A stretch of DNA of 64,000 nucleotides from an uncultured bacterium (GTDB taxonomy: Bacteria > Actinomycetota > Acidimicrobiia > Spongiisociales > ZC4RG35): NCBI GenBank assembly GCA_963825585.1, contig CAWGTX010000008.1, positions 107,908 to 171,907 on the forward strand, given 5' to 3'. Below are positions 59,303-64,000 of the stretch, in pieces. Every line of letters starts with the position of its first letter. Within the stretch, counting starts at the first letter, position 1. Both the position numbers and the translations under genes were made by a program. The notes under the pieces are model-generated. The model saw nothing but the letters and a program-made list of their open reading frames with translations. It was not told where the DNA came from and did not search any database.

Positions 59303-62300
59303 ATGGGATCAGTAGGAATGCCAGTCATAGAGAACGCAGCGCCCGGAGCGCCGCTCATTCGCGTGTTCGGCGGGATGGGTCTCGAAGCCGGGGATGGCCC
59401 GGTTTCCATCGGTGGCGGCAGGCAACGCCGCCTGCTCGCGTTGCTCGCCATCCGGGCCAACACCGTGGTCGACATCGACTGGCTCGCTGAGTACCTCTGG
59501 ACCGACGCCGACCGACCCGGCTCGACAGCGCCTCCACTCCGCACCTACGTGTCCCGCCTCCGCTCGGCGTTCCCCGAGGAGATCCGCGGCTGGATCCAGA
59601 CCGAGGCTTCGGGCTACCGGCTCGCCGTTCCTGAAGAGGCGGTTGAACACACTCGATTCTCCGTCCTGCGGTCTCGAGCCAGGGCTGCCCGAGAGCACGA
59701 CGATCCCCAGACCGCCCAGAGGCTGCTGGACGAGGCGCTCGCCCTGTGGAGGGGGGAGCCGTTCCGGGAACTCGAGGACCTCGATTGGGCCCGTGCCGAG
59801 GTGGAGCGGCTGGCTCTCGATCGGCTGGAAGCGCTCGAGGAACGATGGGAGGCTTCACTGGCTCTCGGCCGTCACACCCAGATCACCGGTGAGCTGGCGG
59901 CGTTCACATCCGAGCACGGTCTGAGGGAGCGCGCCGCCCGCCAATATGCGCTGGCGCTGCACAGGAGCGGCAGGACCGCCGAGGCGATCCGGGTGATCGA
60001 TGATCATCGCCAGCTGATCGCCGACGTCAGCGGATTGGAACCATCGCAGGCGATCCTCGATCTGGAGGAGGCTCTTCTCACCGGCGATCCGTCGCTGGGC
60101 GTCGAAGACGACGGCACGCCGCTCCGGGGGTATCGCCTCATGGAGCAGATCGGCACTGGCGCGTTCTCGGTGGTGTGGCGCGGCATCCAACCGTCGGTGA
60201 ACCGTGAGGTGGCCGTCAAACAGATCCGCAGCGAGCTTGCCTCCCAGCCGGACTTCATCCGCCGGTTCGAGGCCGAGGCCCACCTGGTCGCCCAGATCGA
60301 GCATCCGCACATCGTGCCGCTCATCGACTACTGGCGTGATCCCGACTCGGCCTATCTGGTGATGCGCTGGCTGCGGGGCGGAACGCTGGAGCGGCGGCTC
60401 GACGACGGGCCGCTCACCCTCGACGAGACATTGGCGATGGCCCGCCAGATCGGTGACGCTTTGTCCATTGCGCACGCTCGGGGGGTGGTCCATCGCGATG
60501 TCAAGGCGGCGAACATCCTGTTCGACGAGCAGGGCAACGCCTTCCTCACCGACTTCGGGATCGCACTCGAGGTCGCCGAGTCCGGCGGCCCCGAAGCGGC
60601 GCTCTCGCCGGGCTCACCGGCCTACGCCTCCCCGGAACAGATCCGGCGTGAACAGCTCGGACCCGAGTCCGACGTCTTCAGTCTCGGCGTCGTCGTCTAC
60701 GAGTGTCTCACCGGGTCGCTCCCGTTCCTCGACAGCTCGTCGGCGGAGGAGTTGATCGACCGTCAGTTGAACGCCCCCTACCCGCCGCTGTCTCAGCTCC
60801 GACCGGATCTGCCTTCGTCGGTCTCGGCTGCGGTCGCCCGAGCAACCGCCAAGGAGCCGGGCGAGCGATTCGCATCGGTCGCGGAGTTCATCGCAGCGTT
60901 GGAGACGTCGGCGCCGGCGGTGGCGGTCGGTCGGGCCACCACCACACGCGTTGACGTGGCCAACCCGTACATGGGTCTGCGTTCCTTCGACGACGGCGAC
61001 GTCGACCGGTTCTTCGGGCGCGAGCGCCTGGTCAGTGAGCTGGTCGGCCGGATGTCGGGCAACACCATCGCCTCGCGTTGCCTGGTGCTGGTCGGCCCGT
61101 CAGGCTCGGGGAAGTCGTCTGTCGTCCGGGCGGGTCTCACCCCTTCGCTCCGTGCCGGGGCGGTACCGGGGTCCGACGAGTGGTTCGTGACGACGATGGT
61201 GCCCGGCACCGACCCCTTCGAGTCGTTGGAGGCGGCGTTGTTGCGGATCGCCGTCAACCCGCCCGAGTCGCTCCTGAACCAGATCCGTGATGGGGAGCGG
61301 GGCCTGTTGCGCGGGCTCCGTCGCTGCGTCGGCTCCGATGAGGACAGAGTGCTGCTGGTCATCGATCAGTTCGAGGAGGTCTTCGCCGGCGCTGCGGCCG
61401 ACTCGGCCGATGCATTTCTCGATGCCCTGAGCGTCGCAGTCGAGGATCCGATCTCGCCGCTCAGGCTGGTGGCAACCCTGCGGGCCGACTACTACGACCG
61501 GCCCCTCGAGCATCCGGCGTTCGCCCCGATCCTCAAAGAATCGGCCGTCGACGTCACCCCATTGGCTCCGGACGAGTTGGAACGGGCGATCGTCGAGCCG
61601 GCACGCCGGGTCGGCGTGGAGTTCGAGTCCGGGCTGGTGCCGCGCATCGCCGCCGAGACCGTCCGCCAGCCCTCGCCGCTCCCGATGCTCCAGTACATGC
61701 TGGGTGAGCTGTTCGACCGGCGCACCGGCAACCGCATGACTGTCGCCGACTATGCGCAGCTCGGTGGCCTGAGTGGAGCGCTGGCGGCCCGCGCCGAAGC
61801 CGTGTTCGCATCCGGAACGGCGCCGCAGAGAGCGGCGACGCGGAGGGTGCTGGGCCGCATGACGGACCCCTCCGCAACCGACCTACGACGGCGGGTGCGG
61901 GTGGCGGATCTCGGAGACGACCCCGACGTCCGATGGGTACTCGCGGTCTTCGGCTCGGCCCGCCTGCTGAGCTTCGACCGCGACCCGGCGTCCCGGGAAC
62001 CAACCGTCGAGGTGGCTCATGAGGCCCTGCTGCGCGAGTGGCCGCGCCTGGTGGGCTGGCTGGCCGAGGACCGAGAGCTCCTGCTGTCCGCCGACGCCAC
62101 GGCGATGGCCGCTGATTCATGGCTCGATGCCGGGCGGCAACGAGCCGACCTGTATCGCGGTGCCCGTCTGGAATGGGCGAACGATCTGGTCTCGACGGCA
62201 CCCGAACGGCTCCGCCCCCTCGATGTCGAGTTCGTCGAGGCGTCGAACGCCGCCGCAGAAGAGGCGCGTCTGCTGGAGGAATCCCAGGTCACGCGGCTTC

Positions 62301-64000: not shown

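What the first reader, a model, noticed from the sequence alone, without database searches (positions are those of the whole stretch)
59303..64000. Single ORF of over 1,560 codons fusing SARP/BTAD, Ser/Thr kinase, STAND NTPase, TM helix and a propeller-like region
One uninterrupted frame encodes, in this order:
1. An OmpR/SARP-type winged helix and a BTAD domain.
2. A kinase domain with all catalytic signatures: GxGxFS, VAVK, HRDVKAAN, DFG, SPE.
3. A P-loop STAND module with the NPYMGLRSFDDGDVDRFFGRE lead-in, Walker A GPSGSGKSS and Walker B LLVIDQFEE.
4. One hydrophobic helix (LVAGVGAALVVALVAGGIALV).
5. An alanine/glutamate-rich coiled coil.
6. At least 480 residues of repetitive beta-strand-like sequence that continue past the window.

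SARP-BTAD-NTPase proteins (AfsR-like) and kinase-WD40 or STAND-WD40 proteins are each known in actinobacteria, and STAND NTPases with repeat sensors are recurrent in conflict and defence systems. Putting a DNA-binding SARP head, a kinase and a membrane-anchored STAND-propeller on one chain is unusual. It implies a membrane-tethered transcription factor whose output could be gated by NTP-dependent oligomerisation and phosphorylation.

This ORF is frame-intact although it sits in a window rich in broken genes.
Basis: partly seen in the sequence, partly recalled or inferred. Interest (0 to 1): 0.7.

Follow-up and report, generated by a model that had tools for sequence, protein, structure and literature searches.

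The report
Membrane-spanning SARP–kinase–STAND receptor regulator
This gene encodes a very large single-pass membrane protein that joins an outside sensor (a double beta-propeller) to an inside ATPase switch, a protein kinase and a DNA-binding head; it belongs to a large but unstudied family of Acidimicrobiia that appears to switch on its own gene and neighbouring genes for exported proteins.

Summary
Window 59303-64000 (+) is one open frame of 1,566 codons; the full protein is about 1,750 aa. It encodes, in order: SARP winged helix and BTAD, an active-looking Ser/Thr kinase, an nSTAND1 NTPase, one TM helix, a helical stalk, and a tandem WD40-type double propeller.

The architecture is not rare. 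At least 594 loci occur in GTDB species genomes, almost all Acidimicrobiia and often several per genome. All 120 best database hits share the layout. No paper I found describes it.

Topology is N-in/C-out:
- The TM helix is present in 103/103 relatives.
- K/R residues are in excess on its N-terminal side.
- The C-terminal part has exactly four Cys in 92/103.
- Some paralogs replace the propeller with an extracellular solute-binding domain.

New here is a conserved box of two 11-bp direct repeats (TGTNA-N6-TGTAA). It lies 5 nt upstream of a −10-like hexamer and 27-29 nt upstream of the start codon. This matches the published SARP promoter geometry. The box precedes family genes and adjacent genes for exported proteins.

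Best reading: a transmembrane receptor and transcription activator, autoregulated, with a local envelope regulon. A defence role is not supported. It is a new variant of known kinds.

The parts
59263..59284 (+). Two 11-bp direct repeats: DRup CGTTATGTGGC (59263-59273) and DRdown TGTAAGGTCGC (59274-59284). This is the proposed SARP box of the family (consensus TGTNA-N6-TGTAA). The window copy has one mismatch in DRup (C for T).
   Evidence: It is the only PWM hit in the 64-kb window (27.9 bits). The strict pattern gives 22 matches in 2.04 Mb of loci, all on the gene's strand, and 17 of them lie directly upstream of family genes. At PWM >=16 bits there are 37 hits, 35 of them on the + strand, and 23 of them 42-73 nt upstream of family genes.
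59290..59295 (+). −10-like hexamer GACTGT, 5 nt after DRdown and 7 nt before ATG 59303. It predicts a leaderless transcript.
   Evidence: A hexamer at this fixed offset has A at position 2 in 23/24 loci and T at position 6 in 23/24 loci. An in-frame ATG or GTG lies 27-29 nt from DRdown in 21/24 loci. The hexamer is outside the PWM. The geometry matches the SARP rule quoted in PMC10936776.
59303..64000 (+). Open reading frame of the receptor-regulator. It runs 188 codons past the window end. The database model starts at 59318, but the promoter geometry favours 59303.
59420..59623 (+). OmpR/SARP-type winged helix. The recognition helix LRTYVSRLR lies at 59537-59563.
   Evidence: Trans_reg_C 24.7 bits. 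AfsR 8hvr E 6e-27 and EmbR 2fez E 3e-21. The AfsR base-contact residues T88 and R92 align with T76 and R80, which are near-invariant and invariant in 103 relatives.
59651..60079 (+). BTAD (bacterial transcriptional activation domain)
   Evidence: PF03704, 105 bits, profile positions 4-146 of 146
60131..60913 (+). Hanks-type Ser/Thr protein kinase domain with a complete catalytic apparatus
   Evidence: Pkinase 166 bits. The PknB-type model aligns to residues 277-537. K301, D394, N399, DFG 412-414 and PE 439-440 are invariant in 103 relatives.
60965..62143 (+). nSTAND1 NTPase module. Walker A lies at 61094-61120, Walker B at 61352-61378, TLRAD at 61475-61489, and the winged-helix motif VAHEALLREW, with its invariant His, at 62012-62041.
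   Evidence: PF20703, 352.6 bits, full length. The model shows a P-loop core, a helical domain and a winged helix (pLDDT 68.6). The top Foldseek hits are CED-4, Orc1/Cdc6, NRC1 NB-ARC and Apaf-1.
62306..62368 (+). Single transmembrane helix LVAGVGAALVVALVAGGIALV, preceded by RLRR
   Evidence: Kyte-Doolittle 2.43. Present in 103/103 relatives. Flanking K/R counts are 5.7 on the N-terminal side and 2.3 on the C-terminal side.
62369..62647 (+). Extracytoplasmic helical stalk (about 60 residues) and a small helical cap carrying the motif LLLALEA
   Evidence: In the AF2 model, helix 2-61 and helices 66-95 have pLDDT of about 90. Stalk length varies from 29 to 90 aa across relatives.
62651..64000 (+). 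Tandem WD40-type double beta-propeller, the extracytoplasmic sensor. It continues past the window to about residue 1711 and is followed by a Cys-containing helical hairpin.
   Evidence: About 56 strands, pLDDT 88, pTM 0.76. Foldseek finds double propellers at E 1e-23 to 1e-18. There are exactly four Cys in 92/103 relatives. Mean pairwise identity is 32%, against 62-69% for the cytoplasmic modules.

Best explanation
The gene encodes a single-pass, N-in/C-out transmembrane receptor that is also a transcription activator.

Shown by sequence analysis: the domain order, the conserved catalytic and DNA-reading residues, the topology signals, the interchangeable sensor domains, and a SARP-type promoter box at the gene and at adjacent genes for exported proteins.

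Inferred mechanism:
1. The extracytoplasmic double propeller (a solute-binding domain in some paralogs) binds a ligand in the cell envelope.
2. The signal crosses the membrane through the stalk and TM helix. It drives nucleotide-dependent switching or oligomerisation of the cytoplasmic nSTAND1 module.
3. Oligomerisation brings the kinase domains together for trans-phosphorylation. This follows the example of AfsK acting on the AfsR NOD.
4. It also places two SARP heads side by side on the two 11-bp direct repeats, 8 bp upstream of a weak −10 element, where they recruit RNA polymerase.
5. The targets are its own leaderless gene (positive feedback) and nearby genes for lipoproteins and small membrane-anchored repeat proteins. 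A membrane-tethered factor would most easily reach targets that lie close to its own gene.

In effect, the separate AfsK kinase and AfsR (SARP plus STAND) pair of Streptomyces is fused into one chain and given a ToxR/CadC-like membrane topology.
For: Domains and order.

Functional residues are invariant in 103 relatives: kinase K301/D394/N399/DFG; Walker A and B; winged-helix His901; SARP recognition-helix residues T76 and R80, which align with AfsR T88 and R92.

Topology:
- The TM helix is present in 103/103 relatives, with a positive-inside K/R bias of 5.7 against 2.3.
- The ectodomain has exactly four Cys in 92/103 relatives and an even number in 100/103. Cytoplasmic Cys counts scatter from 1 to 8.
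- At least 5 of 80 loci replace the propeller with an extracellular solute-binding domain (SBP_bac_1, 58 bits).

Sensor: a confident double-propeller model. It diverges about twice as fast as the signalling core, at 32% against 62-69% mean identity.

Promoter box:
- The strict motif has 22 matches in 2.04 Mb, all on the gene's strand, and 17 of them lie directly upstream of family genes.
- The PWM finds 23 sites 42-73 nt upstream of family genes. Nine of these were not used to build it, and one is in Ilumatobacter nonamiensis.
- The window has a single hit, at 59260.
- The geometry is fixed in 24 loci: DR, DR, 5 nt, nAnnnT, 5-7 nt, start codon. It equals the published SARP rule.
- The 12 other boxes examined all precede exported or membrane-anchored proteins. 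All lie within 1.9 kb of the family gene, although flanks reach 6 kb.

A Rosetta-stone link: the C-terminal extension of one relative's ectodomain (P0030) is 45% identical (E 1.7e-37) to the C-terminus of a box-controlled neighbouring lipoprotein.

Context: there is no operon partner conserved by homology and no defence context.

AfsR precedent: ATP binding relieves autoinhibition, and AfsK phosphorylates the NOD, including the last Walker-A residue, raising ATPase activity and oligomerisation (PMC10936776).
Against: - Nothing here is experimental.
- Trans_reg_C scores just below Pfam's cut-off.
- The box is detectable upstream of only 23 of 76 family genes that have upstream DNA. Most members either use diverged sites or are not autoregulated.
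- The box could be read by a different OmpR/SARP-type regulator.
- All DNA scanned for the box, apart from 59 kb of the window, lies within 10 kb of a family gene. Genome-wide specificity is therefore untested. The metagenome scan was swamped by chance hits.
- In AfsR, phosphorylation has only a small effect on activation, so the role of the fused kinase is uncertain.
- The nSTAND1 model is only moderately confident (pLDDT 68.6), and its fold matches are weak.
- nSTAND1 was first described in conflict systems (PMC8195603).
- One relative (L039) lacks the TM helix and stalk.
Confidence: 0.55

Rival explanations
1. It is mainly a receptor Ser/Thr kinase of the PknB/PknD kind that phosphorylates other cellular substrates. 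The SARP-BTAD head would be an intramolecular substrate or a protein-interaction module and not a DNA-binding output at the membrane. The upstream box would be read by some other regulator.
For: The kinase is the best-conserved module (69% mean identity) and looks fully active. Sources name the protein simply 'protein kinase'. SARP-less versions (kinase-nSTAND1-TM-WD40) exist. The box is detected at only about 30% of family genes.
Against: The SARP head is present in the large majority of relatives: about 112 of the 120 best hits even when the search is seeded with a SARP-less member. Its DNA-reading residues are invariant. The box has exactly SARP geometry and clusters at family genes.
Confidence: 0.17
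2. It is a conflict or anti-phage STAND system, like other nSTAND1 proteins. The propeller would sense an invader, and the kinase (with the SARP head) would be the effector.
For: nSTAND1 was defined in predicted conflict systems (PMC8195603). PADLOC kinase models (PD-T4-6, mad6) and the candidate kinase-NTPase model C3a189 match the protein. The family is multi-copy per genome with a fast-evolving sensor. Flanks are not syntenic even between relatives at 75-88% nucleotide identity. One locus lies near an integrase.
Against: Among the 138 nearest neighbour ORFs of 44 loci, no PADLOC family hits more than one ORF, and 148 different Pfam families are hit. The sensor is extracytoplasmic, whereas characterised STAND defence sensors bind phage proteins inside the cell (PMC13581612). 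The PADLOC hits are generic kinase-domain matches. The kinase is catalytically intact, whereas Kaur et al. report mostly inactive kinases in their conflict systems (PMC7159879). The output domain is a transcription activator with a matching promoter box.
Confidence: 0.1
3. It works as in the best explanation, except that the active transcription factor is released from the membrane by regulated proteolysis and does not act while tethered.
For: Membrane-tethered regulators released by proteolysis are well known (general knowledge). A 1,000-residue cytoplasmic part tethered to the membrane may have limited reach. A natural TM-less variant exists (L039).
Against: No protease gene is conserved nearby. 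The inter-domain linkers are short, and the BTAD-kinase linker is conserved at 67% identity. The box-controlled targets cluster within 1.9 kb of the gene, which is what a factor that stays tethered would predict.
Confidence: 0.1

Closest known systems
AfsR with its kinase AfsK (Streptomyces coelicolor): a large SARP made of SARP, NB-ARC NOD and TPR, phosphorylated by a separate Ser/Thr kinase
   Same: The SARP head is homologous (E 6e-27 over its full length, with the base-contact residues conserved). A STAND NTPase follows the SARP head. A Ser/Thr kinase acts in the same pathway. The target promoter carries two 11-bp direct repeats next to a weak −10 element. A small adjacent gene is a target (afsS in Streptomyces; box-preceded neighbours here).
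   Different: Here the kinase is fused between the SARP head and the NTPase. The NTPase is nSTAND1, not NB-ARC. The sensor is a double WD40 propeller or a solute-binding domain, not TPR, and it lies across a TM helix, outside the cytoplasm. The family is found in Acidimicrobiia, not Streptomyces.
EmbR with PknH (Mycobacterium tuberculosis): a SARP-FHA regulator phosphorylated by a transmembrane receptor kinase
   Same: EmbR's SARP fold matches (2fez, E 3e-21). A membrane receptor kinase controls a SARP regulator (the PknH link is noted in PMC1262709).
   Different: EmbR and PknH are two proteins linked through an FHA domain. Here there is a single chain, no FHA domain, and an added STAND NTPase.
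ToxR, CadC and TcpP: membrane-tethered OmpR-type one-component regulators (from my own knowledge)
   Same: An N-terminal cytoplasmic OmpR-family winged helix, one TM helix, a C-terminal sensor outside the membrane, and targets next to the regulator gene (cadC-cadBA there; box-controlled neighbours here).
   Different: Here about 900 residues of kinase and NTPase sit between the DNA-binding head and the TM helix, and a BTAD domain is present. No sequence relationship was detected beyond the winged helix.
PknD of M. tuberculosis: a receptor Ser/Thr kinase with an extracellular beta-propeller (from my own knowledge)
   Same: The order kinase, single TM helix, extracytoplasmic beta-propeller sensor.
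   Different: PknD has a six-bladed NHL propeller and neither a SARP head nor a STAND module.
nSTAND1 proteins of predicted conflict systems (Kaur, Iyer, Burroughs, Aravind 2021, PMC8195603)
   Same: The same NTPase family (PF20703, 352 bits, full length). Kinase and repeat domains are among the partners reported for it.
   Different: Those proteins carry effector-associated or death-like adaptor domains and sit in conflict-system gene neighbourhoods. This family has a SARP output, a TM helix before the sensor, and no such neighbourhood.

Membership tests
SARP family transcription activators | N-terminal OmpR-type winged-helix DNA-binding domain | tested here: met
   Trans_reg_C scores 24.7 bits against a cut-off of 26.2. 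The NCBIfam BagI/FevR and AfsR SARP models give E 2e-37 and 5e-36. AfsR and EmbR structures align over residues 26-259 and 22-258.
SARP family transcription activators | BTAD domain directly after the winged helix | tested here: met
   PF03704, 105 bits, profile positions 4-146 of 146
SARP family transcription activators | Base-contacting residues of the recognition helix (AfsR T88 and R92) | tested here: met
   They align with T76 and R80. R80 is invariant and T76 is at least 90% conserved in 103 relatives. The residues are named in PMC10936776.
SARP family transcription activators | Target promoters carry direct repeats 11 or 22 bp apart, with the 3' repeat 8 bp from the −10 element | tested here: met
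   Such a site precedes the gene and 23 relatives, with fixed spacing to an nAnnnT hexamer. The rule is quoted from PMC10936776.
SARP family transcription activators | The protein binds those repeats and activates transcription | not testable with these tools
   This needs EMSA or DAP-seq and reporter or in vitro transcription assays.
AfsR-like large SARPs | NB-ARC-clade NOD followed by TPR repeats, all cytoplasmic | tested here: not met
   The NTPase is nSTAND1, with no NB-ARC Pfam hit. The sensor is a WD40 double propeller beyond a TM helix. The definition is taken from bioRxiv 10.64898/2026.09.02.748808.
Hanks-type Ser/Thr protein kinases | Gly-rich loop, VAIK Lys, HRD Asp and Asn, DFG and APE motifs | tested here: met
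   GTGAFS, VAVK, HRDVKAAN, DFG and SPE are present. K301, D394, N399, D412-G414 and P439-E440 are invariant in 103 relatives.
STAND NTPases, nSTAND1 clade | Match to the nSTAND1 profile with intact Walker A and Walker B motifs | tested here: met
   PF20703, E 5e-105, profile positions 1-378 of 379. GPSGSGKSS and D683/E686/E687 are invariant.
STAND NTPases, nSTAND1 clade | Order of NBD, helical domain and winged helix, with a conserved His in the winged helix | tested here: inconclusive
   The model's secondary-structure order fits, and His901 in VAHEAL is invariant. However, the model has pLDDT 68.6. The fold matches to CED-4, Orc1/Cdc6, NRC1 and Apaf-1 are weak, at E about 1e-6 and TM about 0.3. 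No solved relative was found by sequence.
STAND NTPases, nSTAND1 clade | The repeat sensor lies in the same compartment as the NOD, so it can fold back on it | tested here: not met
   A conserved TM helix separates them, and the sensor carries the hallmarks of an exported domain.
Anti-phage or conflict STAND systems (Avs-like, nSTAND1 conflict systems) | Location among defence genes, or fusion to an immune effector (nuclease, protease, TIR, EAD or death-like adaptor) | tested here: not met
   No PADLOC family recurs among the 138 nearest neighbour ORFs. The neighbours hit 148 different Pfam families. The N-terminal domains are a SARP head and an active kinase. The criteria are those described in PMC13581612.
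ToxR/CadC-like membrane-tethered one-component regulators | Cytoplasmic N-terminal OmpR-type winged helix, one TM helix, extracytoplasmic C-terminal sensor | tested here: met
   This is a resemblance in layout only; no homology was found beyond the winged helix.

The most novel reading that the evidence does not exclude
This family would be a transmembrane NLR-like receptor. A STAND switch would be triggered across the membrane by an external propeller or solute-binding sensor, not by a sensor that folds back on the NOD. Its ligands or co-receptors would be the small exported repeat proteins and lipoproteins encoded next to it under the same SARP box. The locus would then form a self-contained, self-amplifying module that senses and responds to the state of the cell envelope.
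Probability: 0.25. Interest if true: 0.8.

Novelty: new variant of a known kind. Interest (0 to 1): 0.6.

Why it matters
STAND/NLR switches are understood as cytoplasmic receptors whose sensor domain holds the NTPase in check by direct contact. Here the sensor lies on the other side of the membrane, so activation must work differently, and the family gives a way to study that.

It would also add a fourth class of 'large SARP', beside AfsR-like and SARP-LAL. It would fuse the AfsK/AfsR-type kinase-regulator pair into one chain. It would also give Acidimicrobiia, an abundant and little-studied soil and aquatic class, a major family of envelope-sensing regulators.

The predicted 22-bp box, the leaderless start and the adjacent exported targets make the model directly testable. 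Cultured Ilumatobacter species carry the family.

Tried and rejected
- Looked up the window protein's own contig to read past position 64000: not on record. Close relatives were used instead.
- Searched for a conserved operon partner by all-vs-all BLASTP of flank ORFs in 44 loci. No cluster occurs in more than 6 loci, and none has a fixed position.
- Tested synteny with the closest relatives: identity ends at the gene borders.
- Took a neighbour census against Pfam and PADLOC: flat, with no defence enrichment. On this basis the defence reading was ranked low.
- Searched the PDB by sequence with the nSTAND1 module: nothing significant.
- The AF2 model of nSTAND1 is only moderately confident, so its fold matches are treated as weak support.
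- Self-BLAST of the propeller region found no sequence repeats. The blades are visible only in the model.
- tblastn of the protein against the rest of the window found no second copy.
72 of the 80 returned loci are low-GC chance matches, so it is consistent with the hypothesis but underpowered.
- Literature searches for the architecture found no description.
- Considered reading TAAGGT inside DRdown as the −10 element. Rejected in favour of the nAnnnT hexamer 5 nt after DRdown, which keeps a fixed distance to the start codon in 21/24 loci.
- The inverted repeat at 59233-59247 is not conserved in relatives and was left unexplained.
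Full report
**1. The observation**

Window 59303-64000 (+) translates without a stop for 1,566 codons. The database holds the same protein as P0001, 1,749 aa, called from the second ATG at 59318. It therefore runs 188 codons past the window end.

- Trans_reg_C, residues 40-107: 24.7 bits, just under the 26.2-bit cut-off.
- BTAD, residues 117-259: 105 bits.
- Pkinase, residues 277-488: 166 bits. A PknB-type model aligns to 277-537.
- nSTAND1 (PF20703), residues 555-947: 352.6 bits, covering profile positions 1-378 of 379.

The SARP head aligns over its whole length with the AfsR structures (8hvr/8k60, E 6e-27) and with EmbR (2fez, E 3e-21).

The remark that the window is rich in broken genes is only weakly supported. 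Of five suspicious same-strand ORF pairs, one (an acetamidase/formamidase gene near 41070-41718, minus strand) is split by a frameshift. The six genes upstream of the ORF are intact.

**2. Not a rarity but a family**

A search of 5.8 billion proteins returned 4,181 hits at E <= 1e-10 among the scored candidates. All 120 best hits are 50-89% identical, most are 1,650-1,910 aa (the shorter ones appear truncated), and all carry BTAD, Pkinase and nSTAND1, nearly all with Trans_reg_C as well. Sources label them 'protein kinase', 'BTAD domain-containing putative transcriptional regulator' or 'nSTAND1 domain-containing NTPase'. They come from Acidimicrobiia, Ilumatobacter and Actinomycetota MAGs.

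Nearly all are Acidimicrobiales or Ilumatobacteraceae, including the cultured Ilumatobacter nonamiensis YM16-303, plus Nitriliruptoraceae. Several MAGs hold two to four copies.

A search of the 50%-identity cluster library with the nSTAND1-TM segment gave 15,481 clusters at E <= 1e-30. In most of the best 150, the NTPase starts near residue 500-590 of a 1,600-1,800 aa protein, which is the full fusion.

Versions without the SARP head exist (L068, L078, L038) but are a small minority, about 8 of 120 hits even when the search is seeded with one of them.

I found no paper that describes the architecture:
- nSTAND1 was named in a study of conflict systems (PMC8195603).
- Current SARP classifications list small, medium and large SARPs, the large ones being AfsR-like or SARP-LAL (bioRxiv 10.64898/2026.09.02.748808).

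**3. Conservation and topology**

In an alignment of 103 full-length relatives (P0001 numbering), the following are invariant:
- Kinase: K301, D394, N399, DFG 412-414 and PE 439-440.
- NTPase: the whole Walker A (GPSGSGKSS), D683/E686/E687 of Walker B, R722 and His901 (VAHEAL).
- SARP recognition helix: R80 and R82, with T76 at least 90% conserved.

The hydrophobic helix (window 62306-62368) occurs at the same aligned position in 103/103 relatives. It is flanked by 5.7 K/R residues on its N-terminal side and 2.3 on its C-terminal side.

The region after the helix has exactly four Cys in 92/103 relatives and an even number in 100/103. Cys counts in the N-terminal 1,000 residues scatter from 1 to 8. 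This is the pattern expected of a disulfide-bonded exported domain.

There is also independent support. In at least 5 of 80 loci (L072, L074, L079, L080, L083), the domain after the TM helix is a bacterial extracellular solute-binding protein domain (SBP_bac_1, 58 bits) instead of a propeller.

Together these results indicate an N-in/C-out topology. The SARP head, kinase and NTPase lie in the cytoplasm and the sensor lies outside.

**4. The sensor and the NTPase**

An AlphaFold2 model of residues 1016-1749, built from 19 aligned relatives, is confident (pLDDT 88, pTM 0.76). It shows:
- a 60-residue helix;
- a small helical cap carrying the LLLALEA motif;
- about 56 beta-strands;
- a short C-terminal helical hairpin.

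Its best PDB matches are two-propeller WD40 proteins: Utp21/WDR36, Pwp2, EML-type proteins, Gemin5, the Apaf-1 WD40 pair and the 14-blade Nostoc propeller 2ymu, at E 1e-23 to 1e-18.

The stalk varies from 29 to 90 residues among relatives. Mean pairwise identity is 62-69% for the wHTH, BTAD, kinase and nSTAND1 modules, but 32% for the propellers. So the signalling core is conserved and the sensor diversifies fast.

nSTAND1 has no solved relative detectable by sequence. A model of it is only moderately confident (pLDDT 68.6). It shows the expected order of P-loop core, helical domain and winged helix. Its top fold matches are CED-4, Orc1/Cdc6, the NRC1 NB-ARC domain and Apaf-1, at E of about 1e-6. 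I treat this as weak support.

**5. Genomic context**

The gene stands alone. All-vs-all comparison of flank ORFs in 44 loci found no cluster in more than 6 loci, and none at a fixed position.

Even relatives with 75-88% nucleotide identity match the window only across the gene and about 55-60 nt upstream of it.

The 138 nearest neighbour ORFs hit 148 different Pfam families. The commonest, Beta-lactamase PF00144, occurs five times. No PADLOC family hits more than one ORF.

In the window, the upstream genes are ordinary: acyl-CoA synthetase, SDR, a GAF histidine kinase, a GFO/IDH/MocA oxidoreductase, a glyoxalase and a divergent AraC-type regulator.

**6. A conserved SARP-type box**

This element was not part of the original finding.

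*Occurrence.* Upstream regions of family genes share the motif TGTNA-N6-TGTAA, two half-sites 11 nt apart. In L022 it forms a perfect tandem, TGTGATGTCGC/TGTAATGTCGC.
- The strict pattern occurs 22 times in 2.04 Mb (both strands) of all fetched loci.
- Every match is on the strand of the family gene.
- Seventeen matches lie directly upstream of a family gene.

A 27-nt weight matrix built from 14 sites finds 37 sites at >=16 bits, 35 of them on the + strand. Twenty-three lie 42-73 nt upstream of a family gene. Nine of those were not used to build the matrix.

In the 64-kb window the only hit (27.9 bits) is at 59260-59286, directly upstream of this gene.

*Geometry.* Downstream of the box the spacing is fixed in 24 loci: DRup (11 nt), DRdown (11 nt), 5 nt, then a hexamer.
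- The hexamer has A at position 2 in 23/24 loci and T at position 6 in 23/24 loci.
- An in-frame ATG or GTG follows 27-29 nt from the start of DRdown in 21/24 loci.
- The hexamer and the start codon lie outside the matrix, so these observations are independent of it.

This is the published SARP promoter rule: direct repeats 11 or 22 bp apart, with the 3' repeat 8 bp from a usually weak −10 element. [quoted passage not shown]

In the window the elements are:
- DRup CGTTATGTGGC (59263-59273)
- DRdown TGTAAGGTCGC (59274-59284)
- −10 GACTGT (59290-59295)
- ATG at 59303

This predicts a leaderless mRNA.

**7. A local regulon of exported proteins**

The 12 box copies examined that are not in front of a family gene lie on the same strand and have the same −10 spacing. 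All precede genes for exported or membrane-anchored proteins:
- Lipoproteins with a lipobox: L006, L015, L008, L022, L042 and L065. Two of these are PF00144 beta-lactamase-like.
- A signal-peptide protein: L026.
- Arg-rich single-pass membrane proteins: L014, L033, L001 and L005.

All 12 lie within 1.9 kb of the family gene, although the flanks reach 6 kb.

In the two closest relatives of the window gene (L005, 90% identity; L001, 77%), the box-preceded downstream gene encodes a small membrane-anchored protein with about nine SxQFAETQRxxALA repeats. An ortholog very probably lies just past position 64000.

In one relative (P0030), the ectodomain carries a C-terminal extension that is 45% identical (E 1.7e-37) to the C-terminus of a box-controlled neighbouring lipoprotein. 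This is a Rosetta-stone hint that the ectodomain and these neighbours work together.

Of the eight high-GC hits, one is a family gene with its start at offset 29, and four precede exported-type proteins. This is consistent with the hypothesis but underpowered.

**8. Mechanism**

The points in sections 1-7 are shown by sequence analysis. The following steps are inferred:
1. Ligand binding to the outside sensor is passed through the stalk and TM helix to the nSTAND1 switch.
2. Nucleotide-dependent oligomerisation brings the kinase domains together.
3. It also places two SARP heads on the two repeats, where they recruit RNA polymerase to a weak −10 element.
4. The gene activates itself and nearby envelope genes.

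The AfsR precedent supports the logic. In AfsR, ATP binding relieves autoinhibition. AfsK phosphorylates the NOD, including the last Walker-A residue, which raises ATPase activity and oligomerisation. The effect of phosphorylation on transcription is small, however, so the exact role of the fused kinase is open.

Targets clustered next to the regulator gene fit a factor that stays at the membrane, as with cadC-cadBA (my own knowledge).

**9. Rivals**

- A receptor kinase whose SARP head is not a DNA-binding output (0.17).
- A conflict or defence STAND system (0.10).
- Proteolytic release of the head (0.10).

The defence reading is disfavoured for four reasons:
- The neighbourhood is flat.
- The sensor is outside the cell.
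- The kinase is intact, whereas Kaur et al. found mostly inactive kinases in their systems.
- The output domain is a transcription activator with a matching promoter box.

**10. Verdict**

The protein is a member of a large, uncharacterised Acidimicrobiia family. The family is best described as a new variant of known kinds (SARP regulators, STAND switches, receptor Ser/Thr kinases) with a ToxR-like topology.

The box and the local regulon are new and testable.

Interest: 0.6.

Noticed in passing
window 59233-59247: A perfect inverted repeat, CTGCACA-T-TGTGCAG, lies between the divergent AraC-type gene and the SARP box, with a further GTGCAG copy near 59205. It is not conserved in the closest relatives and may be an operator for the AraC-type regulator.
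   Followed up: partly
window 41070-41718 (−): An acetamidase/formamidase (FmdA_AmdA) gene is split by a frameshift. Pfam profile positions 203-232 and 226-363 fall in two overlapping frames. This was the only broken gene found among five suspicious ORF pairs.
   Followed up: partly
window 59303 vs 59318: The database gene model (P0001) starts at ATG 59318. The conserved promoter geometry, and an in-frame ATG conserved in L020 and L001, favour 59303. The protein would then be 1,754 aa and its mRNA leaderless.
   Followed up: yes
L005:11452-12150, L001:15455-16132; also L007:11275-11853, L017:11254-11889, L030:11243-11716: The genes just downstream of the family gene encode small proteins with an Arg-rich N-terminus, one TM helix and tandem short peptide repeats outside the membrane. 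The repeats are about 9 x SxQFAETQRxxALA in L005 and L001, and 3-6 x TERVPSGSPFDAPLVVRRV in the L007 group. They have no Pfam match and could be ligands or partners of the propeller.
   Followed up: partly
L079:9043-10902 (also L072, L074, L080, L083): These paralogs keep the SARP-kinase-nSTAND1-TM core but carry an extracellular solute-binding protein domain (SBP_bac_1) in place of the double propeller.
   Followed up: yes
L039 (protein residues ~985-995): One relative has a clean in-frame deletion of the TM helix and stalk (...RRVRR|HTEDPELALVLALEA...), giving a presumably all-cytoplasmic version. It sits in a MAG that holds four paralogs.
   Followed up: partly
P0030 residues 1738-1909 and the L065 downstream ORF, residues 547-721: A roughly 175-residue domain of unknown function is shared (45% identity, E 1.7e-37) between the C-terminal extension of one family member's ectodomain and the C-terminus of a box-controlled beta-lactamase-like lipoprotein encoded next to another family member.
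   Followed up: partly
L006, L009, L023, L027, L031, L042, L055, L071: In these loci the family ORF is interrupted before the end of the protein match. Several of them are MFD-series MAGs. I did not determine whether these are assembly indels or real pseudogenes.
   Followed up: no
L021, L022, L024, L028, L069 flanks: A PF00144 (beta-lactamase / penicillin-binding-like) gene is the most frequent neighbour, in 5 of 44 loci. In L022 and L065 such a gene is preceded by the box.
   Followed up: partly
L003:21788-24624: In the 4.37-Mb Acidimicrobiales chromosome, a phage-type integrase and an HTH_17 (excisionase-like) gene lie 6.5-9.3 kb downstream of the family gene, after a run of small ORFs without Pfam matches. 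This may be an integrated element.
   Followed up: no
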